UHGV virus genome: UHGV-0122704
Length of the DNA stretch: 43,652 bases
From: a virus
Strand: one strand, 5' to 3'
In this document: piece by piece, positions 1 through 36,700 of the stretch
Layout of the letters: each line of letters opens with the position of its first letter
How positions within the stretch are numbered: the stretch's first letter is position 1
Notes under the pieces: model-generated
What the model saw: only the letters and a program-made list of their open reading frames with translations
Database searches by the model: none
What the model was told of the DNA's origin: nothing
Program-made: the position numbers and the translations under genes

Positions 1-686
1 TCCCTATCTATAGGGAGTGCCTAGCTTATGACAACGTACGCTCTGGCTTTAACTGTTCGTACGGTGGTGGCTACGTTTATGACTGCGAGGCTCACGGTAG
101 CCAGAATGGTGTGCGAATCAACGGGGGCCGTGTTAAAGGCGGTCGGTACACGCGCAACTCCAGCTCTCACATCTTCGTCACTAAGGATGTGGCTGAGACA
201 GCGCAGACATCCCTGGAGATTGATGACGTGAGCATGCGCTACGACGGTACCGGAAGAGCTGTGTACTTCCACGGGACTATGGGCATTAACCCTACCATGG
301 TATCTATGTCCAATAATGACATGACCGGTCACGGTGTGTCTTGGGCATTACTGAGTGGTTATACTGTGCAGCCTACGCCTCCGCGCATGTCCAGGAACTT
401 ACTGGACGACACAAGCATTCGCGGAGTGGCAACACTGGTTGCGGGTGAGGCTACGGTCAACGCTCGTGTACGCGGAAACTTTGGCAGCGTAGCTAACTCC
501 TTCAAGTGGGTGTCTGAGGTCAAGTTGACGCGGTTAACCTTTCCTTCTAGTGCTGGGGCCTTGACGGTTACTGGCGTAGCACAGAACCAGGATGTACCTA
601 CACCTAATCCGGACCTAAACAGCTTCGTGATTAGGAGTAGTAACGCAGCGGATGTATCCCAGGTAGCCTGGGAGGTGTATCTCTAA
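1..686 (+). CDS. Tailspike / putative capsule depolymerase, C-terminal part (5'-truncated by window start; probable continuation of 42383..43652)
   Basis: Frame with codons at 3,6,9... is open from base 3 to the TAA at 684..686. It is in phase with the ORF truncated at 43652 if the window ends are joined. Gly/Ser/Thr/Asn/Val-rich sequence typical of beta-helix tailspikes. Confidence 0.6.
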   Translation, partial: PIYRECLAYDNVRSGFNCSYGGGYVYDCEAHGSQNGVRINGGRVKGGRYTRNSSSHIFVTKDVAETAQTSLEIDDVSMRYDGTGRAVYFHGTMGINPTMVSMSNNDMTGHGVSWALLSGYTVQPTPPRMSRNLLDDTSIRGVATLVAGEATVNARVRGNFGSVANSFKWVSEVKLTRLTFPSSAGALTVTGVAQNQDVPTPNPDLNSFVIRSSNAADVSQVAWEVYL

Positions 687-782
687 GTAGCTCCCTGGGG
701 TATCTCTATGGTATCCCGGGGCACTACTTGGGGTGCACGTCTATACCTGGACCTGAAATTTATTAGACTTTAAAATGAGGAT

Positions 783-1662: not shown

Positions 1663-1858
1663 GCTGTAGTGCGTCACGGTGCTATCCCTAGTATGCACTA
1701 GGCTATCCACTGGCTATCCCTAGTGCTTTACATTGTGCCGATTATATGCTACGCTGCGCGCTCCCCACTAGGGCGCACATCCTCACCCAACACTATCCCG
1801 GCGCTATCTCTTTGCTATCCCCTTGCTCTTACTTTCATTCGAAAGCTGTCATGAAATG

Positions 1859-1875
1859 ATGTTACAGGAGTAGGA
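1859..1875 (+). promoter_or_regulatory. Copy A of conserved motif ATGTTACAGGAGTAGGA (17-mer core)
   Basis: Exact 17-mer also present at 22584..22600 and 34492..34508; lies in the non-coding terminal region about 190 bp upstream of HNH gene 2067. Confidence 0.6.
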
Positions 1876-2635: not shown

Positions 2636-2664
2636 TTGACACCGCGAAGAACATAAGCTAGATT
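2636..2664 (+). promoter_or_regulatory. Candidate sigma70 early promoter (-35 TTGACA, 17-nt spacer, -10 TAGATT)
   Basis: Consensus -35 TTGACA 2636..2641; -10-like TAGATT 2659..2664. Confidence 0.5.
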
Positions 2665-2733: not shown

Positions 2734-3083
2734 AGATAGCGAACAAGGCAAGGATAACCACTCTAGGGCGCAAGGATGTGTGTCCCGTCGGATTAGGCTA
2801 GACGTTAAAAATGACCTCTTAAAGGTTTAGTAGTAAGCTGGTTTGCGGGGAGGCCCAGTACCTTGACTGGTACGTTGACGACCCACCCCTAGACAATCAG
2901 TTAAAGAGTAAACGTGCCGGACGTTATCACCGGGGTTCTGAGACAAACCACACTGTCGAGGCGAGAGCAGCTCGCTCCTCTGAATCGAGGGAACAAGGCG
3001 CGGAGTGTATCCCGCAAAGAGCATATAACATAGCGCAGCAGTAACAAGGTTGCGCTAGATTATGTTCTCTGAGAGGTAAGAGT

Positions 3084-3281
3084 ATGCGCAAATCAAAGCG
3101 TTTAGCATTACGGCGGAATATGCAATTATCACTGAATCCCACCGACGACGTGCCGCTTACTGTGAAGCCTAGCAAACAAGGGTTGAGCAGTGAGCACAGG
3201 GTGAGGGGAAAGCAAAAACAAAAGGGCAGTAGCAGGCAGCCATCTGGATGGCCTACTGTTAACTCCCAATTTGGTCGATAA
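3084..3281 (+). CDS. Hypothetical early protein, small and strongly basic (65 aa)
   Basis: ATG 3084 preceded by GAGAGG; first ORF after the early promoter cluster; Lys/Arg-rich. Confidence 0.5.
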   Translation: MRKSKRLALRRNMQLSLNPTDDVPLTVKPSKQGLSSEHRVRGKQKQKGSSRQPSGWPTVNSQFGR

Positions 3282-3287
3282 TTACAG

Positions 3288-3317
3288 CCTATAGCATCCT
3301 ACGGGGTGCTATGTGAA
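3288..3317 (+). promoter_or_regulatory. Conserved intergenic stem-loop motif, copy 1 (CCTATAGCATCCTACGGGGTGCTATGTGAA)
   Basis: 27/30 identical to 4004..4033. Stem ATAGCA/TGCTAT plus CC/GG around a 4-nt loop; no T-run follows. Confidence 0.6.
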
Positions 3318-3352
3318 GTAATTACCTAAACAACCAATCAAAGAGGTGCATT

Positions 3353-3928
3353 ATGACCCATTCAACTGGTAAAGTATTCAAGCTCACCGCTGCGGGCAGC
3401 ATTCGTAAAGCGCTGGGCGACGTAGTGGAAGCAAAGCGCAACATCACTATTAGCGCGCTCTTCCACGGCCTGATTAGCAGCAACGTTTCCTGGGCTATGG
3501 ATATGCAGCGCAGCGATGCCGCGGACTTCGATATGGTGCTGCGTACGCTGCTGCCTATCAAGTTCAACAAGGAGTCCGGCAAATACGAATTCAACGCGAA
3601 GAAGTGCTATGCGTCTGCTGAGAAGCTGGGCATCGAACTGGACACTATGCGTCTGGACTATAAACAAGCTGACAAGCAGGAGCGCGAAGTAATTGTAGCC
3701 AGCTTCTATAGCTCCTGTATGGCCCTGTACGCTGCCGAAGCGGAGCAGGTAAAGAATGACGCGCTGGATGCCGATGCAGTGCGCTTGCAAGCGCTGGGGC
3801 GCGTTAAAAACGCTATCAAGAAGGCAAAAGAGACTGGTGTAAGCGACGCTGACCTCGTGTATATGCTGGTATCGCAGGGCGTGGATGTACGCGCTGTACT
3901 GGACGCAACTTTGAAGGCGGCGGCATGA
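3353..3928 (+). CDS. Hypothetical early protein (191 aa) with host-optimal codon bias, probably abundantly expressed
   Basis: ATG 3353 preceded by AAGAGG. Strong preference for CTG/CGT/AAC/TTC/ATC codons like the capsid gene. No recognisable domain. Confidence 0.7.
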   Translation: MTHSTGKVFKLTAAGSIRKALGDVVEAKRNITISALFHGLISSNVSWAMDMQRSDAADFDMVLRTLLPIKFNKESGKYEFNAKKCYASAEKLGIELDTMRLDYKQADKQEREVIVASFYSSCMALYAAEAEQVKNDALDADAVRLQALGRVKNAIKKAKETGVSDADLVYMLVSQGVDVRAVLDATLKAAA

Positions 3929-3996
3929 GCGTAGAATTCATGGTTATCATAACGGCGGTGGTGCTGTTATTTGTAGTGGCGGGCGAATATCTCTAG
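3925..3996 (+). CDS. Possible small hydrophobic peptide (23 aa, MSVEFMVIITAVVLLFVVAGEYL)
   Basis: ATGA start/stop overlap with the upstream gene; single predicted TM helix. Too short to support strongly. Confidence 0.3.
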   Translation: MSVEFMVIITAVVLLFVVAGEYL

Positions 3997-4003
3997 TAGC
4001 AAG

Positions 4004-4033
4004 CCTATAGCGTCCTGCGGGGCGCTATGTGAA
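4004..4033 (+). promoter_or_regulatory. Conserved intergenic stem-loop motif, copy 2 (CCTATAGCGTCCTGCGGGGCGCTATGTGAA)
   Basis: Stem ATAGCG/CGCTAT carries a compensatory A-T to G-C change relative to copy 1; lies just upstream of gene 4046. Confidence 0.6.
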
Positions 4034-4045
4034 TGCAACTGGCGT

Positions 4046-4279
4046 ATGGGGTTTCATATGAAAGCAATACTGGTCTATCCGGGCCATGAACTCTGGCCCG
4101 TGTGGTGCAATCGGGTATACGCAGAATACAACTACACTGTGGTCATATTCTCTGACAAAGACACTAATCAGGAATCCCCTTTAGAATTTGTGGATACCTA
4201 CACCGAAATGGCTGCCCGCACTGTGCTGGACGCCGTGAATCTTGGCATTATCAACGACTGGAGACAACTTTATGGTTAA
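4046..4279 (+). CDS. Hypothetical early protein (77 aa; alternative start ATG 4058)
   Basis: ORF in the early gene array; weak RBS, start uncertain. Confidence 0.45.
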   Translation: MGFHMKAILVYPGHELWPVWCNRVYAEYNYTVVIFSDKDTNQESPLEFVDTYTEMAARTVLDAVNLGIINDWRQLYG

Positions 4280-4535
4280 TGTATTCAACATCATTGTGAC
4301 CAGCGCTATGCTGGTGCTGGGCAACGACATAAACAACCCAATCCCATACTGCACTGTGCAGTTGCAGCAACCGGCAACGCAGGAGCCGCAGCCGCGCCCT
4401 GAGTACGACCTATTTGAAGACCCCGAGGGTGGTTGCAAAGAGCTGGGCGCACGTATCCTTGCGGCGGTGCAGGAGCAGTACCAGGACGCTGCGGTAACGC
4501 TCACGGTGGATGGTAAGAGCAATAACGAAATTTGA
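4272..4535 (+). CDS. Hypothetical early protein (87 aa) with hydrophobic N-terminus
   Basis: ATG 4272 preceded by GGAGAC and overlapping the upstream stop; N-terminal VFNIIVTSAMLVLG could be a TM helix. Confidence 0.45.
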   Translation: MVNVFNIIVTSAMLVLGNDINNPIPYCTVQLQQPATQEPQPRPEYDLFEDPEGGCKELGARILAAVQEQYQDAAVTLTVDGKSNNEI

Positions 4536-4939: not shown

Positions 4940-5271
4940 ACGAAACAGCGCTGCTGTGCTGGCGTCTGCTGGAAACGCAGGGCAAGTGCGGTTGCACTTG
5001 GGAAACATTCAAAGAGGTTCCTAATGAACTCAAGCAAATCGTGCCAGTTGAGCGTCGATTACTCCGAGTTAGAAAAGAGGATATTGGCACTGTTCTCACA
5101 ACCTATCGAGAGTACACTGAGTCTGCCGCGCGGAAGCTGCAAGAGCACATTGCATTCGATGTGGTTGCAGCACTACGGCGGAATGGATACCGCGGAGCTT
5201 TTAAGCAATTTAGAGCCGCAGTCCGCGCCTATTATAAGCAGCAACAACTCTCCGCGTGGTACGCACGCTGA
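4927..5271 (+). CDS. Hypothetical early protein (114 aa)
   Basis: ATG 4927 preceded by AAGGA; basic, helix-rich sequence. Confidence 0.45.
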   Translation: MLTVDETALLCWRLLETQGKCGCTWETFKEVPNELKQIVPVERRLLRVRKEDIGTVLTTYREYTESAARKLQEHIAFDVVAALRRNGYRGAFKQFRAAVRAYYKQQQLSAWYAR

Positions 5272-5311: not shown

Positions 5312-6994
5312 ATGAAAATGCAAGAAACTAACACAGCACCTATCGAATGGAAAGTAGTGTTACCGGAAGGTGCAAACGCACTGCCGATTAAAGAATCAAT
5401 GTATTCCAGCGGTGATTACTGGACCCCGTTCCAGGACTTGCAAATGCAAGGGGAGGACCATCCCCACACTGAGGGTCCGCTGCAGGTGCTTATGGGTCTC
5501 CGCACTGTCAGTGCGCACACTCCAGGCTTAGAGGTGACTATAGGCGGGGCACTGCACCCAGAGTATCGCGAATCAACGATGACGCTCGGCCCGTTGCAAA
5601 AGGTGGACCTGTACCGGTCCGGAACTTTCTGCGAACTCTTTGAACCGGTGCGAATCACCATAGACAGCAAGTTCTGGGAACGCCGCCGCGACTTCTATGA
5701 GGGCGAGGATGTAGTGGTTGAGCGCGTAGTTGCTTGCGTCGAAGAATTCACAGGTTACAAGGTGCACAAGCAGGCCGTGCAGTTATTTGAGCGCATCATG
5801 CTTGCACCAGAAGAGCAGCAGCGCCGCTTATACACTGGCTACGATTACGGCCGCCACACCCGCGATGGCAACTTAGCTGCGCTGCTCATGAAGTTGCACG
5901 GCTTCGTAGTGTCTAGATTCGCCGTGCCTTTGGGCTTTGGTTTCCGCAACGGCGAACCTATCGTGATGCTGGGGCAGCCGCGGATGCACAAGGACTTCGC
6001 AGCAGTTACTGAGTACCGCTGCGTAGAGATGCGCGTAGGTAAGTGGCTCGCTAACTACTACGGAAATGGTGTGGACTTCCGCGATGCTATCGAAGACCTC
6101 AAGGCTATGAACGTAGACCCTACAACGTACCTGTGCAAGACCGAGCAGGAATGGTACGACGCCTACGAGAATGGCCCGGGTAGCTGCATGAGCGGGTACT
6201 CATTTGAGCATAGCTCTGTGCGGACGTACGCTACCACCAGCCACGGGTTGCCGGATAATGGGCTGCGCCTGTTCATCCAGTACACCGGGGAGCTGTTCGG
6301 CGACGATTTCGAAGTGCAGGCACGGGCAATCGTTAACACAGAAACTAACGAGTACGTCCGCGCTTACGGCAACGCTGCGGATGCAATCCTGCGGGGGCAT
6401 GGGTACACCAAAAACATTGAATGTCTCGAAGGGGTAATGCTGGCGCGAATACCGCACCCAACATACAACGGCGCAGTGCTGATGCCATACCTAGATAGCA
6501 GCCAGTGCGGCGTAGATGAGTATGGGGATGATGCCTTTGTAATCCGTGATGCTTATGAGTACGAGGCACAAGACTCAGAAGGATACATCTACGTAGGCAC
6601 TGAGTCTGCTCGGTGCTGCTGCTGTGAATGTCGCTACTCTGTAGATGACATGCAGGAGACCGCAGATGGTGATATGGTCTGCGACGGCTGCGTAGAAGAA
6701 GGGGATTTTGTGTACGTAGTTGGGCGTGATGGTCTGCATAATCGCTGGAGCTGCACCTGGTCTGATTACCACGACGCCTATGTATACGACGAGGACATAG
6801 AGCGCTGCGAAGTAGAGGGTGTAGTGCACGACCAAGAGGAACTGGTGTTTGCACAGGACCGGCAAGTGCTTATTGAGCACGCAGAAGAACACCCAGTGCA
6901 CGGGTTAATTCTCACTGAGCATGCAGCTGATTGCTTGGGAGAGAAGTACCTGGGCAACGATGAAGATGAAGAAGAAGCAGAGGAGGCAGCTTAA
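5312..6994 (+). CDS. Large hypothetical early protein (~560 aa) with a Cys cluster and an acidic C-terminal tail
   Basis: Track ORF 5024..6994 trimmed to ATG 5312 (GGGAG RBS), which avoids overlapping 4927..5271. Contains CCCCECRYSVDD...CDGC and ends NDEDEEEAEEAA. No family recognised. Confidence 0.6.
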   Translation: MKMQETNTAPIEWKVVLPEGANALPIKESMYSSGDYWTPFQDLQMQGEDHPHTEGPLQVLMGLRTVSAHTPGLEVTIGGALHPEYRESTMTLGPLQKVDLYRSGTFCELFEPVRITIDSKFWERRRDFYEGEDVVVERVVACVEEFTGYKVHKQAVQLFERIMLAPEEQQRRLYTGYDYGRHTRDGNLAALLMKLHGFVVSRFAVPLGFGFRNGEPIVMLGQPRMHKDFAAVTEYRCVEMRVGKWLANYYGNGVDFRDAIEDLKAMNVDPTTYLCKTEQEWYDAYENGPGSCMSGYSFEHSSVRTYATTSHGLPDNGLRLFIQYTGELFGDDFEVQARAIVNTETNEYVRAYGNAADAILRGHGYTKNIECLEGVMLARIPHPTYNGAVLMPYLDSSQCGVDEYGDDAFVIRDAYEYEAQDSEGYIYVGTESARCCCCECRYSVDDMQETADGDMVCDGCVEEGDFVYVVGRDGLHNRWSCTWSDYHDAYVYDEDIERCEVEGVVHDQEELVFAQDRQVLIEHAEEHPVHGLILTEHAADCLGEKYLGNDEDEEEAEEAA

Positions 6995-9480: not shown

Positions 9481-10761
9481 TTGGACCTAATAGTAGTTAA
9501 GGCAATGTGCACGCAGAAGGTATGGAACCGACTGCGTGAACAGATACCCAAATCCATGCTAGCGCCGGACACAGCTAACCTACTAGACTGGGTGGGGTTG
9601 TACTGGAACACGTACCCGGAGCACCAGGAGGTTCAGTGGGATGCAATGCAGAGCATGCTAAACCTCCGGGCGGGGCACCTGTCCCGGGAAGAGCGGGTAA
9701 TCATGGACGAGCTTATGCGGGGAGTACAAGCCGTGCCACAGGATTCTGTGGTGGGGATTGTCCAGACCCTGAACGAGCTGGCCTACAGCGGGGAGGTAGC
9801 AGCGCTGACGCAGCGCTATCAAGACGGCGAGGAGATTGATTACCTGCTGGAAATGAAGCACCTACAGCGCAAGTACGGTGATGGCGCTGCGGTGCATGAT
9901 TCGCTGCTTGAATGGGAGAGCGGTAGTGTTGACGAGATACTTGCCGCGACTGATGAGAGCGGCGGTCTTAAACTGGGCGTGTTCGAGCAACTCGCTAGCA
10001 ACATCCGAGGTCTACGTGGCGGGGACTGCATCGCAGTGGCTGCTCCTGTGGACTCTGGTAAAACTAGCCTGCTTGCTGCTATTGCTGTGGACTTTGCTGA
10101 GCAGATGCAGCAGCAGCCGGAAGTATACGGGGACCGCCCGATTCTCTGGCTGGTTAACGAGGGTCCGGCGACGCGTACAGTGCCGAGGGTATATCAAGCG
10201 GCGCTGCACTGGACTCTGGCGGAGATTAAGGACCGGCACAGTAAGCAAGAGTTCGTGCCAGCCTACCTCAAGAAAGTAGGCAGGGCTGACCGGATTCGCG
10301 TTAAGGCTGCGCACTCCTTGACGATGGCGCAGATATCCACGCTCATGGAGGAGATGCGCCCCGCGGTAATCATCATTGATATGGTGGCGAATATCCGTGG
10401 CGGTACTATGGAGAGTGAGCACCAGAACCTAGAGGCGAAATGGCAGGAGCTGCGCATCCTTGGGTGCGAGAACGACTGCGCTATCGTAGGGACTATGCAG
10501 CTTTCACTCGAAGGTTACAACATGTTGTTCCCGCCGCTCACCGCTATGAAGCAGAGCAAGATTGGTGTACAGGGTGCCTTGGACTTGGCGATTATGATGG
10601 GATGCTTGGACAGGAACGAGCAGCCGCACATGCAAAACGTCCGTGGTATCAGTACTCCGAAGAACAAGATGGCACTGTCTGGTAAAGAGTCGCTACTGCA
10701 ATTCGAGGTGGGATTCGAGCCGGGTCGTTGCCGCTTTGACGAGGGCCAGATTAACCGGTGA
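9481..10761 (+). CDS. Replicative DNA helicase (DnaB-like / T7 gp4 helicase-domain-like)
   Basis: Walker A AAPVDSGKTSLL and Walker B-like AVIIIDMV. TTG start at 9481 sits 5 nt after a strong AAGGAGG; an in-frame ATG at 9506 is the alternative. Confidence 0.85.
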   Translation: MDLIVVKAMCTQKVWNRLREQIPKSMLAPDTANLLDWVGLYWNTYPEHQEVQWDAMQSMLNLRAGHLSREERVIMDELMRGVQAVPQDSVVGIVQTLNELAYSGEVAALTQRYQDGEEIDYLLEMKHLQRKYGDGAAVHDSLLEWESGSVDEILAATDESGGLKLGVFEQLASNIRGLRGGDCIAVAAPVDSGKTSLLAAIAVDFAEQMQQQPEVYGDRPILWLVNEGPATRTVPRVYQAALHWTLAEIKDRHSKQEFVPAYLKKVGRADRIRVKAAHSLTMAQISTLMEEMRPAVIIIDMVANIRGGTMESEHQNLEAKWQELRILGCENDCAIVGTMQLSLEGYNMLFPPLTAMKQSKIGVQGALDLAIMMGCLDRNEQPHMQNVRGISTPKNKMALSGKESLLQFEVGFEPGRCRFDEGQINR

Positions 10762-10767
10762 CTTCCC

Positions 10768-10790
10768 TAGCGCCTTCTATGAGGGCGCTA
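10768..10790 (+). promoter_or_regulatory. Stem-loop (TAGCGCC / GGCGCTA, 9-nt loop) related to the early hairpin motif
   Basis: Shares GGCGCTATGT with copy 2; lies between the helicase and the small ORF before the DNA polymerase. Confidence 0.45.
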
Positions 10791-10813
10791 TGTAGGTACA
10801 CTAGGAGGCTACT

Positions 10814-20106: not shown

Positions 20107-22575
20107 ATGATTAGCGCCCTGAATACGGTTGTAGTACCAGAGGAAGCACTGGTGAAACGCCAGCTGGAGCTTGAAGAGACCTATAAGATTCGCGGAATCG
20201 AGCGGGCACGTAAGCTGATTACGGACGCATTGCAGAACGGTGGGATTATGAACCTGCCGATGACGCAGCGTATGCTCACCTCGGCATATGAGGTGGCCGC
20301 CGCCGCTATCGATGAGATGCGAAATGTAAAAGCCCCGGGCATTGGCGGTAAGTACCGCCGGTTCCTGCGCTTAGTCCCCTTGGATGTCCTGACCACCCTG
20401 AGCCTATGCACAATGTTTGAGGCATTTAGCGTAGCTCCTGGCGAGTCCGCTAGCCGCCGCCAGACTGCACAGGCGGTAATGTCCGCGCTGGGCCGGAACG
20501 TACAATCGGAACTGCTGGCCCTGCAGTTACGCAACGTGGCTCCGGCGTACATGGACCGTGTGTACGAGTACCTTACGGAGCGTAAGACCAAGTCTCCCAC
20601 GCACATCCTGCGTACGCTGCGGGCCAGTGCTGAGAACGTGCACTATGGGCACGAGCCATGGACCAACTCCCAGAATATCTCAGTAGGTCGGCTGCTATGT
20701 GCCGCGGTGTTTGAGACTGGCCTGTTCCAATGGAAGAACTGTAGTGGGAACCTGAGCATGCTCTACCCGGCTGACGATGTTATGGAGGCCTTCCAGAAAC
20801 TGGTAGAGTCCGCTGATACCGTAACCATGAAGCCGCCTATGCTGGTGCCACCGGTACAGCACACCACTATGTGGGATGGCGGGTACCTTACCCCCATCGA
20901 CAATCGCGGGACCTATCACAACTCGCACATCGACCGCGCGCGACTCCGTGAAGTAGCAGAAGCATTCAAGTCCGCGGACGGCATCAAAAAGGCGCTTAAT
21001 AAGGCGCAGGAAACCCCATACCGTATTAATAAGCGCATACTGGAACTGGTGCAAGAAGCACGGGCCCTGGGTATTGGGGTGGGCATGCCCCGCTCAGTAC
21101 CAGAGCCTAAACCGGAGTGGTACTTGGATGGAGTACCAAAAGAGAACTACACCGAAGAAGAACTGGACCGCTTCGGTGAGTGGAAGACGCGCATGTCCCT
21201 ATGGTACAGCGCAGACCGTAAGCGTGTGTCACAACTACGCAGCCTGTTGACCACGCTGGAAATGGCGGAGGAATTCAAAGATGAGAAAGCCCTGTACTTC
21301 CCGACTTGTGTGGACTGGCGCTACCGCCTGTACTTCAAGTCCTCGCTGCATCCCCAAGGTTCTGATTTGCAGAAAGCCCTTCTTGAATTCGGACGTGGCA
21401 AGCCTCTGGGAGAGCGCGGACTTTTCTGGCTTAAAGTGCACGTCGCCACTTGCTTTGGTTATGACAAAACCCTATTCGAAGACCGTGCAGCTTGGGTTGA
21501 TGCGAACTATGCAGAGATTGAGAGGCTCGCGGATTCTCCTCTTGATGCCCCTGCTTTTTCCTCTGCGGATAGCCCCTGGTGCCTGCTGGCCGCCGCTATC
21601 GACTTGGTTAATGCGGTTCGTTCTGGATGCCCAGAAGAGCATATTAGCCGAATCCCAGTTGCTATGGACGCTACAAACTCAGGTGGACAGCATCTCTCAG
21701 CGCTCCTGAGAGACCCTGTGGGCGGACGCTTGACGAACCTGTACTGGGAGGGTAATGATAAGAAAGCGGACCTGTACATGGACGTGAAGCGCCGTACGGA
21801 CGAGAAGGTGATACTGGACCTGGACAAGGAGGATTTCGTTATCCAGAGCACGTACTGGAGAGAGAACGAAATCACCCGCAGCATGACCAAGCGCCCTAGT
21901 ATGACCTACTTCTACAGCGCCACTGTGCGCAGCTGCAGCGACTACATCTTCGAAGGCGCTTGCGCTGAGGGGTACGAGGGTACTGAGACTAACAGTCTGT
22001 GGAACTTGTCATGCTACCTGGCTCCGCGTATGCGCACTGCTATCGAGGAGGCAAACCCAGCCGCAGCCGCAGTTATGGGGTACTTGCAGAACCTCGCTAG
22101 GCGTGTACCGGCAAGCCAGCATCTGCAGTGGTATACGCCGCTGGGTGGGCTCGTAATGAACCGCTACACGCAGCGTGAAGAAGTGCGCGTACGTATTGAC
22201 TGCATGAACCTATCAGCGGTACTGGTACACAACCGGGACTTCAAAACTTGCAACAAGCGCAAGGCAGCCTCCGGGATTGCCCCGAACTTTGTGCATAGCC
22301 TGGACAGTACGCACTTGATGATGGTGCTCTGCGCTGCGGAGGGTCTGGATATTGTGCCTATTCACGACTCGCTGGCTACTCACGCAGCTGACGTTGACGC
22401 TATGCATAGGCACATCCGTGAGCAGTTTGTGCGCCTGTATGAAGAGAATGACCTGCTTGGCGACATTACTCGCGCAGCAGCAGCAGCCGGGGCAGACTTG
22501 ACGGACCTGGACATGCCGGAAGTGGGCACTTTGGACATCCGGCAAGTGCTAGAATCCCCGTTCTTCTTCTGCTAA
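20107..22575 (+). CDS. Single-subunit DNA-dependent RNA polymerase (T7-like)
   Basis: Motif A VAMDATNSGGQHLSALLRD, motif B RSMTKRPSMTYFYSAT and motif C IHDSLATH correspond to the T7 RNAP catalytic motifs; RBS AAGGAGA. Confidence 0.95.
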   Translation: MISALNTVVVPEEALVKRQLELEETYKIRGIERARKLITDALQNGGIMNLPMTQRMLTSAYEVAAAAIDEMRNVKAPGIGGKYRRFLRLVPLDVLTTLSLCTMFEAFSVAPGESASRRQTAQAVMSALGRNVQSELLALQLRNVAPAYMDRVYEYLTERKTKSPTHILRTLRASAENVHYGHEPWTNSQNISVGRLLCAAVFETGLFQWKNCSGNLSMLYPADDVMEAFQKLVESADTVTMKPPMLVPPVQHTTMWDGGYLTPIDNRGTYHNSHIDRARLREVAEAFKSADGIKKALNKAQETPYRINKRILELVQEARALGIGVGMPRSVPEPKPEWYLDGVPKENYTEEELDRFGEWKTRMSLWYSADRKRVSQLRSLLTTLEMAEEFKDEKALYFPTCVDWRYRLYFKSSLHPQGSDLQKALLEFGRGKPLGERGLFWLKVHVATCFGYDKTLFEDRAAWVDANYAEIERLADSPLDAPAFSSADSPWCLLAAAIDLVNAVRSGCPEEHISRIPVAMDATNSGGQHLSALLRDPVGGRLTNLYWEGNDKKADLYMDVKRRTDEKVILDLDKEDFVIQSTYWRENEITRSMTKRPSMTYFYSATVRSCSDYIFEGACAEGYEGTETNSLWNLSCYLAPRMRTAIEEANPAAAAVMGYLQNLARRVPASQHLQWYTPLGGLVMNRYTQREEVRVRIDCMNLSAVLVHNRDFKTCNKRKAASGIAPNFVHSLDSTHLMMVLCAAEGLDIVPIHDSLATHAADVDAMHRHIREQFVRLYEENDLLGDITRAAAAAGADLTDLDMPEVGTLDIRQVLESPFFFC

Positions 22576-22581
22576 AAAATT

Positions 22582-22600
22582 TAATGTTACAGGAGTAGGA
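22582..22600 (+). promoter_or_regulatory. Copy B of conserved 19-bp motif TAATGTTACAGGAGTAGGA, abutting the start codon of gene 22601
   Basis: Exact 19-mer shared with 34490..34508 and 17-mer shared with 1859..1875. Sits between RNAP and the first late gene; its AGGAG doubles as the RBS. Confidence 0.6.
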
Positions 22601-33746: not shown

Positions 33747-36700
33747 ATGGCTCAGTTTCTGAACCAAGAACCGAATCCACAGGAAAAGGATTCTGCTAAG
33801 GGCGCAACACTTAAACCTGCGCCTGAGCGCGTAGATTGGAACGATGCCGGAGACAACGGCTTAAACGCACTGGAGCGTGCCTCCTTACTGGCGCAGGCCA
33901 AGACCCCAGCTACTACAGCCGGGGAGAGCTTTGCGTCTGGTATGGGTAACAGCATCATCGCCGCAGCTATCCGTAAGGCCTCTGCCCCGGCATTTGACCG
34001 GGACCAGAACTTTAACGCCAAGCAGACTCTGAGCAGCGATACCAGGGCTAAGCTGTATGCTCCGAATCAGGAAGAGATTGAGTACCTGCACGACTCTGTA
34101 TCGGTCGAGGATTACAACTACCGCATGCAGCAGATGCTTGAGCAACGCAACCGTGACCGCTTAATGGCTGACAACACGGTAGCCGGGTTCGCGGGTATGT
34201 TGGTGGGTGATTCTCCGTTCATCCTGGCCCCGATGTCTGCCGCTGGTATTGCTGGCCGCGCAGGCTTAGCTGCACGGACTGCTATCCGCGCTGCTGACGT
34301 AGGCTCCGCATTCTATGCGCAGGACCAACTGGGCCAGTCTGCTGCGGTAACTGCACTGGTAGCGGGCGTAGCTGGGTTGGACCAGCTCTGGGATATGTCT
34401 AGGGCTGCTAAAGCTGCTGCTAAGGCTCGTACTGGGCGTGAGCCTATGTTCGACCCAGAAGCGCCTACAACTCGTACAGCGAGGGACGCTAATGTTACAG
34501 GAGTAGGAGAGGGAGAGGAAATCCTTACTAAGACACTGGATGAAAGCATCCAAGTATCTAGAAACAATACCGCCTCCGTGAACATGAAAGCACAGCACGT
34601 AGTTCAGTTCTTGAAGAAGTCCGAACACTTAACAGCAGGCCAGAAGGCTATTCTGGACACGCTGGGCGATGCTGTAAATGACATTGATTTTAAACTGGTA
34701 GCAGGCTCCGCAAACCGCAGCCGCTACACTTACGCACAGCAAGATTTAGCTAAGCGTGGAGAGGTGTCTCTACGCGCACCTAAGCGAGCTAATGGCAGCA
34801 CATGGACTACAGCAGGGGACGCACTGCGTGCTATGGATGCAGACACAAGCAGGGTAGCCGTGCACGAACTGATTCATGCCGCCACTGCGCGCGCCGTTGA
34901 CAGTAACCCAGAGATTGCTAAGCGCCTGGATGAAGTGCGCGCTGTTATTGCAGCGGACTCCACCTTGACGCCGCGTATGCGGTATTACGCTAGTAATGTG
35001 CACGAGATGCTGGCAGGCTTAGGTGACAGCCCTGAGTGGGTTGAGCATCTGGCGCGGACGAAATCCCCAACCGGTAAGAGCATGCTCCGCCAACTGGGCG
35101 AGTACATCATGAATGCCCTGGGCATCAAGGCCAAAGGTTCTGCCTTGGAAGATGTCTTGGATGCGTACGAGGACGCCGTTAAGTGGACAGCTAAGGATTA
35201 TGCAGACCAAGCCCAGGGCTTCCGTAGTGAAGCCTTCCAGGACCTGGCGGGCAGCACTACCCTAAACGAGGCTAAGGGTGCCCAAGCTATGCTGGATGGC
35301 GCTAAGAAGAAGCTCTCTACTATGTTTGCCCTGTACGATAACATCGCTCAAGGCAATGAAGACTTGGCTAAACTGCTAGTGTCGGATGCGTCCGCAGTAG
35401 GCGGCCGTCGCCCGTCTGTAGTGGACTTCAAGCGCAACCTCACTTTGGAGATGGACGCCAGCGCTAGCGTAGTGGAAGACGCTATCCTGGGCGCGTTGAA
35501 GGATAAGGGTGTAGGTTTCTCTGAGCGCTTCTTCCATCGGAGCAAGTTCCGCGCTGAGCGGGCTGCACTGGAAGACCGCCTGAGCAAGTACCTGGATGCT
35601 GCCTACAGTGCTGATGTAAACGGCCGAGCTGTTCCCGTACCGGATGCAGAGATTGCCCCACTGGTTGACGCCTATCGCCGCTCTGGCTGGGCAGGCAAGT
35701 GGCACGAGCATATGCTCAATGCTGGTCTAGTGGATGATGGTGCGTTGGTTAAATCCGATTACTACTTCCCGCGTCAGTACAGCTACGACAAGATGCGCCA
35801 AGGTATTGCGCAGGGTAACACTCTGGACGACTACCGCGCCCTGTTCAGGTCCGCCCTGCGGGACGTGTACCCGAGCATGGAGTCAGAGGTAGTGCAGCGT
35901 GTTGCAAAGGAGATGGTTGACGGTATCTACAACGGCCGTGCAGGGCAGTCCGGCCCGATGTGGAAGCAGCTGATTAACGGCATGGGTAACGACGAGGTCG
36001 TTATGGCTATGCGTAGCGCTGGTGTAGATGAATCTGCAATCCAGAGTTTCCTGGCTGGTAACGTACGCGAATCCGGTAGCACATCCCCTGCGCGGAACCT
36101 GCGTCAGCGTACTCGGTTCAACATGGACAAAGAGTATCTGGTGAACGGTAAGAGCATGCGCATGCAGGACCTGATGGATACTGATGTAGCCAAGGTTATG
36201 CACGGGTACACTAACCGTATGTCTGGGCGTGTAGGCATGGCCTATGCAGGCGTACAGGACCTGGGCCAGCTAGCTAAGATGATTGATGAGTCTAAGCACG
36301 CACTGGCGGATTCCGCTAAGTGGGAGAAGACAGTCAATGACACCATCGACTTTATCCTGGGTGGGGCGCCTGCTGACGCCGGACAGCTTCCGGATTTGCT
36401 GCGTGCAGCCGGGAACATGGCTAACGCCACCATGCTTAAGAACTCCGGCCTGTATCAGCTGACTGACACTGCCCTGGCTATGAAGGAGTTCGGTATGGCT
36501 AGAGTGCTGCGTAGTATGCGTGACCAGCCTTGGTTCAAGGAAGGTGCCGTAGCTATCAAGACTCCGGATATGGCTACCCGTCTAGACACTGTACTGCGAG
36601 GTAATATCCAGAAGGAGATGCGCTTCCGCTGGTTGAATACGTACGCCGACGATAACCTGGACCTGACCCGTCAGGCCTCTTGGTTCAATGTAACCCAGAA

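What the first reader, a model, noticed from the sequence alone, without database searches (positions are those of the whole stretch)
3288..4033. Paired ~30-bp intergenic stem-loop motif with a compensatory base-pair change in the early region
CCTATAGCATCCTACGGGGTGCTATGTGAA (3288..3317) and CCTATAGCGTCCTGCGGGGCGCTATGTGAA (4004..4033) are 27/30 identical. The stem differs by a paired change (ATAGCA/TGCTAT versus ATAGCG/CGCTAT), which preserves base pairing and argues for selection on structure. Both sit in short gaps just upstream of early genes and neither is followed by a T-tract. A related hairpin sharing GGCGCTATGT lies at 10768..10793. By analogy with T7, where RNase III sites separate early genes, these could be RNA processing or stability elements; promoters and protein-binding sites are alternatives.
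Basis: seen in the sequence. Interest (0 to 1): 0.65.

Follow-up and report, generated by a model that had tools for sequence, protein, structure and literature searches.

The report
Conserved RNA hairpin between early phage genes
The two 30-base repeats are copies of a published but unexplained motif of KP34-like Klebsiella phages, and comparison with relatives shows they fold into a conserved RNA hairpin between early genes, probably a cutting or stabilising signal like the RNase III sites of phage T7.

Summary
The two 30-mers sit at 3288-3317 and 4004-4033, are 27/30 identical, and one difference is a compensatory A-U to G-C change. The window is a Drulisvirus (KP34-like Klebsiella phage).

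The motif is already published. Eriksson 2015 called it a "putative phage promoter". Lu 2019 found that KP34 RNA polymerase does not transcribe from it; the real promoters are at 1857, 22582 and 34490.

What I add is that each copy is the core of a ~46-nt two-tier hairpin on the transcribed strand:
- a 7-bp lower stem;
- an AG/AA internal loop;
- an isolated C-G pair;
- a C/U mismatch;
- a 10-bp upper stem with two conserved G-U wobbles;
- a tetraloop.

Covariation is strong: 95.9% of cells pair, 12 of 18 pairs show double changes, and no shuffle out of 500 does as well. At least seven unrelated lower-stem sequences all pair.

The element occurs in at least eight groups of Autographiviridae that infect Enterobacterales, including SP6 (66 bits). 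It was not found in T7, phiKMV or VP93, and it is not in Rfam. In J8-65, LIMEzero and SP6 it sits in a series of intercistronic hairpins that includes T7-type RNase III-like sites.

Most likely it is an RNase III processing and stability signal, but cleavage is untested. The third hairpin (10768-10793) is real and conserved, but its kinship to the motif is not demonstrable.

The parts
3277..3328 (+). Copy 1 of the structured element (full covariance-model match). Its parts are: lower stem 3279-3285 with 3318-3324; internal loop AG 3286-3287 opposite AA 3316-3317; isolated pair C3288-G3315; mismatch C3289/U3314; upper stem 3290-3299 with 3304-3313; loop UACG 3300-3303.
   Evidence: 76.1 bits, E 6e-20. 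RNA fold -19.4 kcal/mol, z -4.9. The stop codon TAA 3279-3281 of the upstream 65-aa ORF lies in the 5' arm of the lower stem.
3993..4044 (+). Copy 2 of the structured element. Its parts are: lower stem 3995-4001 with 4034-4040 (one A/A mismatch), extendable to 3993/4042; AG 4002-4003 opposite AA 4032-4033; C4004-G4031; C4005/U4030; upper stem 4006-4015 with 4020-4029; loop UGCG 4016-4019.
   Evidence: 49.4 bits, E 7e-12. RNA fold -21.6 kcal/mol. The stop codon TAG 3994-3996 of the 23-codon ORF lies in the lower stem.
2636..2664 (+). Context: host sigma-70-type early promoter, identical to the published Kp34likevirus host promoter. A second published promoter sequence lies at 2706-2734. Transcripts starting here would run through both copies.
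   Evidence: Exact match to TTGACACCGCGAAGAACATAAGCTAGATT (PMC4411677 Table 3). Consensus scan. Sequence.
3353..3928 (+). Context: 191-aa early gene (phrog_5277, function unknown) flanked by the two copies. It is followed by a 23-codon hydrophobic ORF at 3925-3996.
   Evidence: The gene is missing, and a single hybrid copy remains, in three related genomes.
10760..10803 (+). Possible distant cousin. This two-tier hairpin lies between the helicase gene and a 51-aa ORF. It has a 10-bp upper stem (10768-10777 with 10781-10790), a C/U mismatch, an isolated C-G pair and a lower stem.
   Evidence: Fold -24 kcal/mol, z -3.9. Conserved in most Drulisvirus loci. Scores only 9.6 bits, E 6.9, against the motif model.
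1857..1872 (+). Context: true KP34-type phage RNA polymerase strong promoter (TGATGTTACAGGAGTA). Others lie at 22582-22597 and 34490-34505, and the weak promoter at 22528-22547. These show that the motif is not the phage promoter.
   Evidence: Promoters defined experimentally in PMC6834552.

Best explanation
Each copy is a cis-acting RNA stem-loop in the early polycistronic mRNA, which the host RNA polymerase makes from the promoters at about 2636 and 2706.

The RNA folds into an irregular helix about 21 pairs long:
- a 7-bp lower stem whose 5' arm contains the last codons and the stop codon of the upstream gene;
- a conserved AG/AA internal loop;
- an isolated C-G pair;
- a C/U mismatch;
- a 10-bp upper stem with two conserved G-U wobbles;
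- a stable tetraloop.

The most likely function is that of the T7 early-mRNA processing sites. Host RNase III would bind the two-turn helix and cut in or next to the internal loop. The upstream message would keep a protective 3' hairpin, and the downstream message would be released with a short leader of about 25-38 nt that exposes its ribosome-binding site.

Shown here: strand specificity, intergenic placement, conservation of the structure through compensatory changes, near-invariance of the unpaired loop bases, distribution across phage genera, and co-occurrence with T7-type hairpins.

Inferred: that the element acts as RNA rather than single-stranded DNA, that RNase III is the partner, and where it cuts.
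For: 1. Structure.
- On 60 distinct ungapped copies, the lower stem is 91.7% paired, against 52 +/- 2% in column shuffles and 6-58% when partners are slid.
- At least seven unrelated lower-stem sequences all pair.
- On 68 distinct copies from several genera, 95.9% of cells pair, 12 of 18 pairs show double changes, 0 of 500 shuffles reach this, and slid versions give 19-46%.
- RNAalifold on an independent MAFFT alignment finds the same fold, with 14 of 17 pairs covarying.

2. Strand.
- Every copy is on the coding strand.
- The two U-G wobbles are kept in 59/60 and 58/60 copies.
- The minus strand folds 7-8 kcal/mol worse.

3. Context.
- The copies lie downstream of the published host promoters.
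- The upstream stop codon sits inside the lower stem, and the next start codon follows 25-38 nt after UGAA.
- By my recalled coordinates, T7 sites are cut 22-42 nt before most of the following start codons.

4. Design parallel with T7 sites. These have a 9-10 bp upper stem with a conserved lower half, an internal loop holding an isolated C-G pair, conserved unpaired bases, and a variable lower stem.

5. Neighbouring hairpins.
- In J8-65, LIMEzero and SP6 the motif occupies one intergenic gap in a series.
- The other gaps hold hairpins with the T7 consensus CUCAAGG...CCUUUAUGA or the T7 R1-like AGGCCAUC-UGCG-GGUGGCCUGAA.

6. Distribution.
- A 32-nt blastn of the motif finds 298 phage records; every host genus listed in the breakdown is in Enterobacterales (two further name categories were not shown).
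- The downstream genes differ: phrog_5277, phrog_1448, phrog_4571 and a primase.
- This points to a shared host factor rather than a gene-specific phage factor.
- The model finds nothing in phiKMV (whole genome; Pseudomonas host) or in the first 12 kb of VP93 (Vibrio host). VP93 nevertheless carries a homologue of the 191-aa gene.
Against: - No cleavage data exist. I found no transcript-end mapping for any of these phages.
- There is no sequence similarity to T7 sites: the motif model finds nothing in T7.
- The unpaired bases and six base pairs of the upper stem are far more conserved than RNase III, a weakly sequence-specific enzyme, is known to need. This could mean a different, sequence-specific partner.
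- Three genomes carry a hybrid copy whose lower stem cannot form, so the full helix is not strictly required for viability.
- The T7 cleavage coordinates I used are recalled from Dunn and Studier 1983. They were not in the annotation I retrieved.
Confidence: 0.55

Rival explanations
1. The hairpin is an RNA operator for a sequence-specific RNA-binding protein, either from the host or from a conserved phage gene. That protein would control translation or decay of the flanking early genes, without RNase III cleavage.
For: - The unpaired bases A10, G11, C13, U38, A40 and A41 and the box UAUAGC/GCUAUG are nearly invariant in 60 distinct copies, while the lower stem, the top of the stem and the loop vary freely.
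- The hairpin ends 5-20 nt before the next ribosome-binding site.
Against: - No candidate protein emerges. The adjacent genes belong to different families in different genera and carry no RNA-binding domain in Pfam.
- T7 RNase III sites show the same pattern of conserved loop bases, so that pattern does not discriminate between the two explanations.
Confidence: 0.2
2. The hairpin is a passive stability element: a strong intercistronic stem-loop that blocks 3'-to-5' exonucleases, as enterobacterial REP sequences do. It would need no dedicated endonucleolytic cut.
For: - The hairpin is stable (-19 to -22 kcal/mol) and has a UNCG-type loop.
- It sits immediately after stop codons.
- There is no T-tract, so it is not a terminator.
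Against: A passive barrier would not need invariant unpaired bases, a conserved internal loop or a fixed 10-bp upper stem across at least eight phage groups.
Confidence: 0.1
3. The element acts at the DNA level. It could be a site of strand-specific nicking (the alternative offered by Eriksson et al.), a single-strand initiation or origin hairpin, or chiefly a recombination junction for swapping early genes.
For: - PMC4411677 suggests nick sites.
- Hybrid copies in three genomes lack the gene between the repeats, showing that recombination between copies, or cassette gain, does occur.
- G-T pairs are tolerated in single-stranded DNA hairpins.
Against: - Sites recognised in duplex DNA do not produce covariation with freely changing stem sequences.
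- The motif is unlike my recollection of the phiKMV-group nick consensus; this was not tested here.
- Every copy is in the sense orientation, in an intercistronic gap, at a fixed distance from a start codon.
Confidence: 0.08
4. The motif is a promoter for the phage RNA polymerase, which is the original published annotation, or for the host polymerase.
For: - It is the only sequence longer than 20 nt that is repeated in KP34 genomes, and it sits upstream of genes.
Against: - A PCR fragment carrying the motifs gave no transcript with purified KP34 RNA polymerase.
- The real promoters are T(A/G)ATGTTACAGGAGTA plus a weak one inside the polymerase gene (PMC6834552). All are present elsewhere in this window.
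- The sigma-70 scan finds no promoter-like site in the motif.
- A promoter does not explain the covarying stems.
Confidence: 0.02

Closest known systems
RNase III processing sites of phage T7 early and late mRNAs (R0.3, R0.5, R1, R1.1, R1.3 and others; Dunn and Studier 1983, cited from memory)
   Same: - Intercistronic position on the sense strand of a polycistronic phage mRNA in the same virus family.
- Two-tier hairpin of about two helical turns.
- 9-10 bp upper stem whose lower half is sequence-conserved.
- Internal loop with an isolated C-G pair and conserved unpaired bases.
- Lower stem that differs from site to site.
- About 20-40 nt before the next start codon.
- Several copies per genome.
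   Different: - No sequence similarity: CCUAUAGC...GCUAUGUGAA against CUCAAGG...CCUUUAUGAU. The motif model finds nothing in T7.
- The internal loop is smaller and more symmetric (2x2 plus 1x1).
- There are only 1-3 copies per genome, all in the early region.
- Cleavage is unproven.
'Putative phage promoter' of the Kp34likevirus genus (Eriksson et al. 2015, PMC4411677)
   Same: It is the identical sequence, with consensus AGCCTATAGCGTCCTACGGGGCGCTATGTGAA, in two copies in the early region of every member.
   Different: - The promoter reading was tested and failed in vitro (PMC6834552).
- Neither paper describes the extended two-tier fold, the covariation, or the presence outside the genus.
- Here the element is also found in SP6, K1-ULIP33, J8-65, LIMEzero, Gaspode, BF25/12 and PP2.
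Promoter-early-stem-loop (PeSL) cassettes of T4-type phages (Arbiol et al. 2010, from memory)
   Same: - Short repeated regulatory sequences with a stem-loop that flank variable early genes.
- They act as substrates for recombination that adds or removes genes. Compare the hybrid copies and the loss of the 191-aa gene.
   Different: - PeSLs include an early promoter and a terminator-like stem-loop.
- The present motif has neither a promoter nor a T-tract.
REP/BIME intercistronic palindromes of enterobacterial operons (from memory)
   Same: - Conserved imperfect palindromes between cistrons.
- They form RNA hairpins that stabilise upstream message.
   Different: - REPs are chromosomal and present in hundreds of copies.
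- The present motif has no match in 5,426 E. coli genomes.

Membership tests
T7-type RNase III processing site | Lies between cistrons, on the sense strand of a polycistronic phage transcript | tested here: met
   Both copies are intergenic, on the + strand, and downstream of the published host promoters. The same holds in seven other phages.
T7-type RNase III processing site | Two-tier hairpin of about 20 pairs: an upper stem of about 10 bp, an internal loop and a lower stem | tested here: met
   7 + 1 + 10 pairs plus three non-canonical positions. T7 sites folded for comparison.
T7-type RNase III processing site | Sequence homology to the T7 site consensus (CUCAAGG...CCUUUAUGAU) | tested here: not met
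   The model R1 has no hit in T7 below E = 3.8. The T7-consensus fragment tested (CCTTTATGA) has no exact match in the window; the 12 one-mismatch matches were not checked for hairpin context.
T7-type RNase III processing site | Cleaved by host RNase III in vivo and in vitro | not testable with these tools
   No end-mapping data were found. This needs a comparison of rnc mutant and wild type, or the purified enzyme.
T7-type RNase III processing site | Base-pair preferences around the cleavage site (proximal, middle and distal boxes; Altuvia 2018) | not tested
   The scoring matrix is only in a figure or supplement of PMC6212723, and the cleavage position is unknown.
Phage single-subunit RNA polymerase promoter | Directs transcription by the cognate polymerase and matches its promoter consensus | tested here: not met
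   Published in vitro test was negative (PMC6834552). The true promoter sequences are elsewhere in the window.
Intrinsic (rho-independent) terminator | GC-rich hairpin followed directly by a run of U | tested here: not met
   There is no T-tract after either copy, and neither appears in the terminator scan.
Any curated Rfam family | Reaches the family gathering score, or at least a low E-value | tested here: not met
   0 matches at gathering thresholds in the whole window. Only two chance-level matches (E 2.8 and 8.7) in 3250-4070.
Palindromic DNA operator for a dimeric DNA-binding protein | Symmetry on both strands, with half-site sequence conserved rather than covarying | tested here: not met
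   Two conserved G-U wobbles make the minus strand mismatched. The lower-stem sequence changes freely while pairing is kept.

The most novel reading that the evidence does not exclude
The element is not an RNase III site. Instead it is a portable, sequence-specific RNA module recognised by an as yet unknown enterobacterial or phage factor, through the invariant AG/UGAA loop and the UAUAGC/GCUAUG box. It would be exchanged horizontally among at least five subfamilies of Autographiviridae, and would double as the recombination junction through which early 'accessory' genes are gained and lost.
Probability: 0.15. Interest if true: 0.6.

Novelty: new member of a known kind. Interest (0 to 1): 0.42.

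Why it matters
- It gives a testable answer to a loose end in the literature. The only long repeated motif in KP34-like phages was called a promoter in 2015 and shown not to be one in 2019, which left it unexplained.
- It defines an RNA family that is not in Rfam. The family spans many therapeutic-candidate Klebsiella phages, Pectobacterium and Dickeya biocontrol phages, and the classic phage SP6.
- If RNase III is the partner, T7-style mRNA processing would be more widespread in the family than the T7 consensus alone suggests.
- Phage engineers should know that deleting or duplicating these junctions may alter early gene expression, and that the repeats are recombination-prone.

Tried and rejected
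- Phage promoter: rejected on published in vitro data and on the location of the true promoters.
- Terminator: there is no T-tract.
- Known RNA family: no Rfam match at either threshold.
- Host or prophage origin in E. coli: no match in 5,426 genomes.
- Scan of 185,579 bacterial genomes with a degenerate pattern: 112 stretches, nearly all chance matches without a stem. The only exception is a look-alike hairpin found in two contigs, L220 (an Atlantibacter contig, in prophage-like surroundings) and L278 (source not inspected).
- Membership of the 10768 hairpin: not supported (9.6 bits, E 6.9), although the hairpin is conserved.
- Link to one downstream gene family: rejected, because the downstream genes differ among genera. 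In addition, Vibrio phage VP93 has a homologue of the 191-aa gene without the hairpin.
- MAFFT alignment of the 52-mers misplaced the lower stems by one column. I therefore analysed the naturally ungapped sequences in Python and a model-based alignment.
- Scoring against RNase III base-pair rules: not possible, because the matrix is not in the text held.
- Literature searches for transcriptomics of these phages, or for RNase III sites in SP6-like phages, found nothing usable. The SP6 genome paper is not held.

Full report
**Observation**

The two 30-mers are at 3288-3317 and 4004-4033. A degenerate pattern covering both finds only these two sites in the window, and none in 100 shuffles. They differ at three positions, and two of these (9 and 20) are partners in the stem, turning an A-U pair into G-C. 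As RNA the + strand folds at -19.4 and -21.6 kcal/mol (z -4.9 and -3.3). The minus strand reaches only -12.3 and -13.4, because two G-U wobbles become A-C mismatches there. Complementarity continues outside the 30-mer: TAATTAC/GTAATTA around copy 1 and AGTAGCA/TGCAACT around copy 2. These are different sequences and both pair.

**Identity of the window and prior knowledge**

The region matches 249 phage records, almost all Klebsiella Drulisvirus (KP34-like) phages. The motif is already published. Eriksson et al. 2015 (PMC4411677, Table 3) list exactly these two sequences in five phages as "putative phage promoters", with consensus AGCCTATAGCGTCCTACGGGGCGCTATGTGAA, and mention nick sites as an alternative. 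Lu et al. 2019 (PMC6834552) report that a PCR fragment carrying them gave no transcript with purified KP34 RNA polymerase. They define the real promoters as T(A/G)ATGTTACAGGAGTA plus a weak one inside the polymerase gene.

Those promoters are present in this window at 1857, 22582 and 34490, and the weak one at 22528. The published host promoter sequences are at 2636-2664 (exact match) and 2706-2734, upstream of both copies on the same strand. Only these two phage papers in the held library contain the motif sequence, and no transcript-end mapping of such phages was found. The function is therefore open.

**Structure and covariation**

I fetched 39 Drulisvirus loci through the 191-aa protein, that is, without reference to the motif.
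- Every locus carries the motif, always on the coding strand.
- Three genomes have three copies.

A pattern scan that left the stem top and the flanks free added further loci. On 60 distinct, naturally ungapped 52-mers:
- The 7-bp lower stem is 91.7% paired, against 52 +/- 2% in column shuffles and 6-58% with slid partners.
- At least seven unrelated lower-stem sequences all pair: TAATTAC, AGTAGCA, GGTTAAT, GGCTGAT, AGTGATG, GGTTGAC and AATGGTA.
- Upper-stem pair 20-31 occurs as A-U, G-C and C-G.
- Pair 16-35 switches from U-A to C-G, with one mismatched intermediate.
- Pair 23-28 goes from C-G through a C/A mismatch to U-A.
- The two U-G wobbles are kept in 59/60 and 58/60 copies.

Further checks agree:
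- A curated gapless alignment gives 96.7% pairing and 8 pairs with double changes.
- A covariance model built from it (R1) aligned 94 matches, 68 of them distinct. On these, 95.9% of cells pair, 12 of 18 pairs show double changes, 0 of 500 shuffles reach this on any measure, and slid controls give 19-46%.
- RNAalifold on an independent MAFFT alignment of 17 diverse copies predicts the same fold, with 14 of 17 pairs covarying.

The unpaired bases AG, C, U and AA and the box UAUAGC/GCUAUG are almost invariant.

**The third hairpin**

In the window the model finds only the two copies (76.1 and 49.4 bits). The hairpin at 10766-10792 scores 9.6 bits, E 6.9. It is a real, stable two-tier hairpin that is conserved in most Drulisvirus genomes, and it even has the same C/U mismatch and isolated C-G pair. 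It shows almost no informative variation, however, and its membership cannot be demonstrated.

**Distribution**

A 32-nt blastn against 50,697 phage records finds 298 records; every host genus listed in the breakdown belongs to Enterobacterales, and two further name categories were not shown:

| Host genus | Records |
|---|---|
| Klebsiella | 211 |
| Pectobacterium | 53 |
| Escherichia | 20 |
| Cronobacter, Enterobacter, Shigella, Pantoea, Dickeya | a few each |

Model hits with significant E-values were confirmed in these phages:

| Phage | Taxon | Position |
|---|---|---|
| J8-65 | Bonnellvirus | 1936-1987 (72 bits) |
| LIMEzero | Waewaevirus | 2289-2336 |
| Gaspode | Phimunavirus | 2005-2053 |
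| BF25/12 | Stompvirus | 4991-5040 |
| PP2 | Wanjuvirus | 5764-5789 |
| K1-ULIP33 | Molineuxvirinae | 2806-2859 |
| SP6 | Zindervirus (Molineuxvirinae) | 2365-2416 (66 bits, E 1e-16), between the genes annotated gp6 and gp7 |

In PP2 the isolated C-G pair is flipped to G-C. LIMEzero and BF25/12 also show weaker second hits of lower significance (LIMEzero 3560-3614, 22.1 bits, E 9e-4, and 4288-4347, 16.1 bits, E 0.058; BF25/12 6210-6261, 18.1 bits, E 0.015).

The model finds nothing in T7, in Pseudomonas phage phiKMV or in the first 12 kb of Vibrio phage VP93. VP93 nevertheless has a homologue of the 191-aa gene. There is no Rfam match and no match in E. coli genomes.

**Context and mechanism**

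- The gene downstream of the motif differs among genera: phrog_5277, phrog_1448, phrog_4571 and a primase. The element is therefore modular rather than tied to one gene.
- In this window, K1-ULIP33 and Gaspode the upstream stop codon lies inside the 5' arm of the lower stem. This explains why that arm varies and why the 3' arm must covary with it.
- In this window the next start codon follows 25-38 nt after UGAA.
- T7 RNase III sites, folded at cleavage coordinates I recalled from Dunn and Studier, have the same design. They have a 9-10 bp upper stem with a conserved lower half, an internal loop with an isolated C-G pair and conserved unpaired bases, and a variable lower stem. Most are cut 22-42 nt before the next start.
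- In J8-65, LIMEzero and SP6 the motif occupies one gap in a run of intercistronic hairpins. The others carry the T7 consensus (CUCAAGG...CCUUUAUGA) or resemble T7 R1 (AGGCCAUC-UGCG-GGUGGCCUGAA).

I therefore read the element as another sequence class of intercistronic processing and stability hairpin, with host RNase III as the most probable partner. Cleavage is inferred, not shown. The very strong conservation of unpaired bases leaves room for a different, sequence-specific binder.

**Other points**

Three related genomes lack the 191-aa gene and carry one hybrid copy, with the 5' flank of copy 1 and the 3' flank of copy 2. The repeats therefore also act as recombination junctions.

**Verdict**

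- The motif itself is not new.
- What appears to be new, within the literature I could search, is its reading as a covarying RNA element, its extended fold, and its spread across at least eight groups of Autographiviridae, including SP6.

Noticed in passing
window 3020-3070 (+): Another two-tier hairpin (-23 kcal/mol), with upper stem UAGCGCAGC/GUUGCGCUA, a 2x2 loop CA/GA and a lower stem AUAUAA/UUAUGU, just upstream of the 65-aa ORF. It is present in only 11 of 40 Drulisvirus loci. Its changes keep pairing through wobbles.
   Followed up: partly
window 3925-3996 (+): A 23-codon hydrophobic ORF (MSVEFMVIITAVVLLFVVAGEYL) overlaps the stop codon of the 191-aa gene in an ATGA. LIMEzero has the same pair: ORF02 of 177 aa followed by ORF03 of 22 aa. 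This suggests a conserved two-gene cassette behind the motif.
   Followed up: no
L048 9143, L077 218, L086 (minus strand): Three related genomes have one hybrid motif copy, with the 5' flank of copy 1 and the 3' flank of copy 2, and they lack the 191-aa gene. This is consistent with deletion by recombination between the repeats. The lower stem cannot form in these hybrids.
   Followed up: yes
L003 1533 and 1621; L024 2344 and 2436; L028 2348 and 2436: Some Drulisvirus genomes carry two motif copies only 88-92 nt apart, with no gene between them, plus the third copy further on.
   Followed up: no
L106 2641-2679; L108 about 5900-5950; L109 3923-3989 and 4655-4719: A different recurrent hairpin class in Gaspode, BF25/12 and LIMEzero: GUGAUUUCUGUC-stem-GUAGGGCAAUCAUG. 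In the Gaspode example the upstream stop codon and the downstream start codon both lie inside the lower stem.
   Followed up: no
L105 2533-2610 and 3605-3680; L109 2957-3018; L283 12223-12273: Hairpins carrying the T7 RNase III-site consensus (CUCAAGG...CCUUUAUGA) occur in J8-65, LIMEzero and SP6. None of these is a T7-like (Studiervirinae) phage.
   Followed up: partly
window 681-733 and 1450-1710: A very stable intergenic hairpin (-35 kcal/mol) is followed by a repeat-rich, structure-rich stretch. The window appears circularly permuted relative to KP34, since the leftmost phage promoter is at 1857 here against 475 in KP34.
   Followed up: no
L220 5764-5794 (Atlantibacter subterraneus contig): A look-alike hairpin (CCUAUAGCUGAUU-UAC-GAGUCAGCUAUGUGA) directly follows the stop codon of a small ORF. 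The surrounding ORFs look prophage-like to me (a DUF551-like and a RecT-like product), but I did not run them against any family library. A second contig, L278, carries the same locus.
   Followed up: partly
The gap in front of it is unstructured, and the model finds no copy in the first 12 kb.
   Followed up: yes
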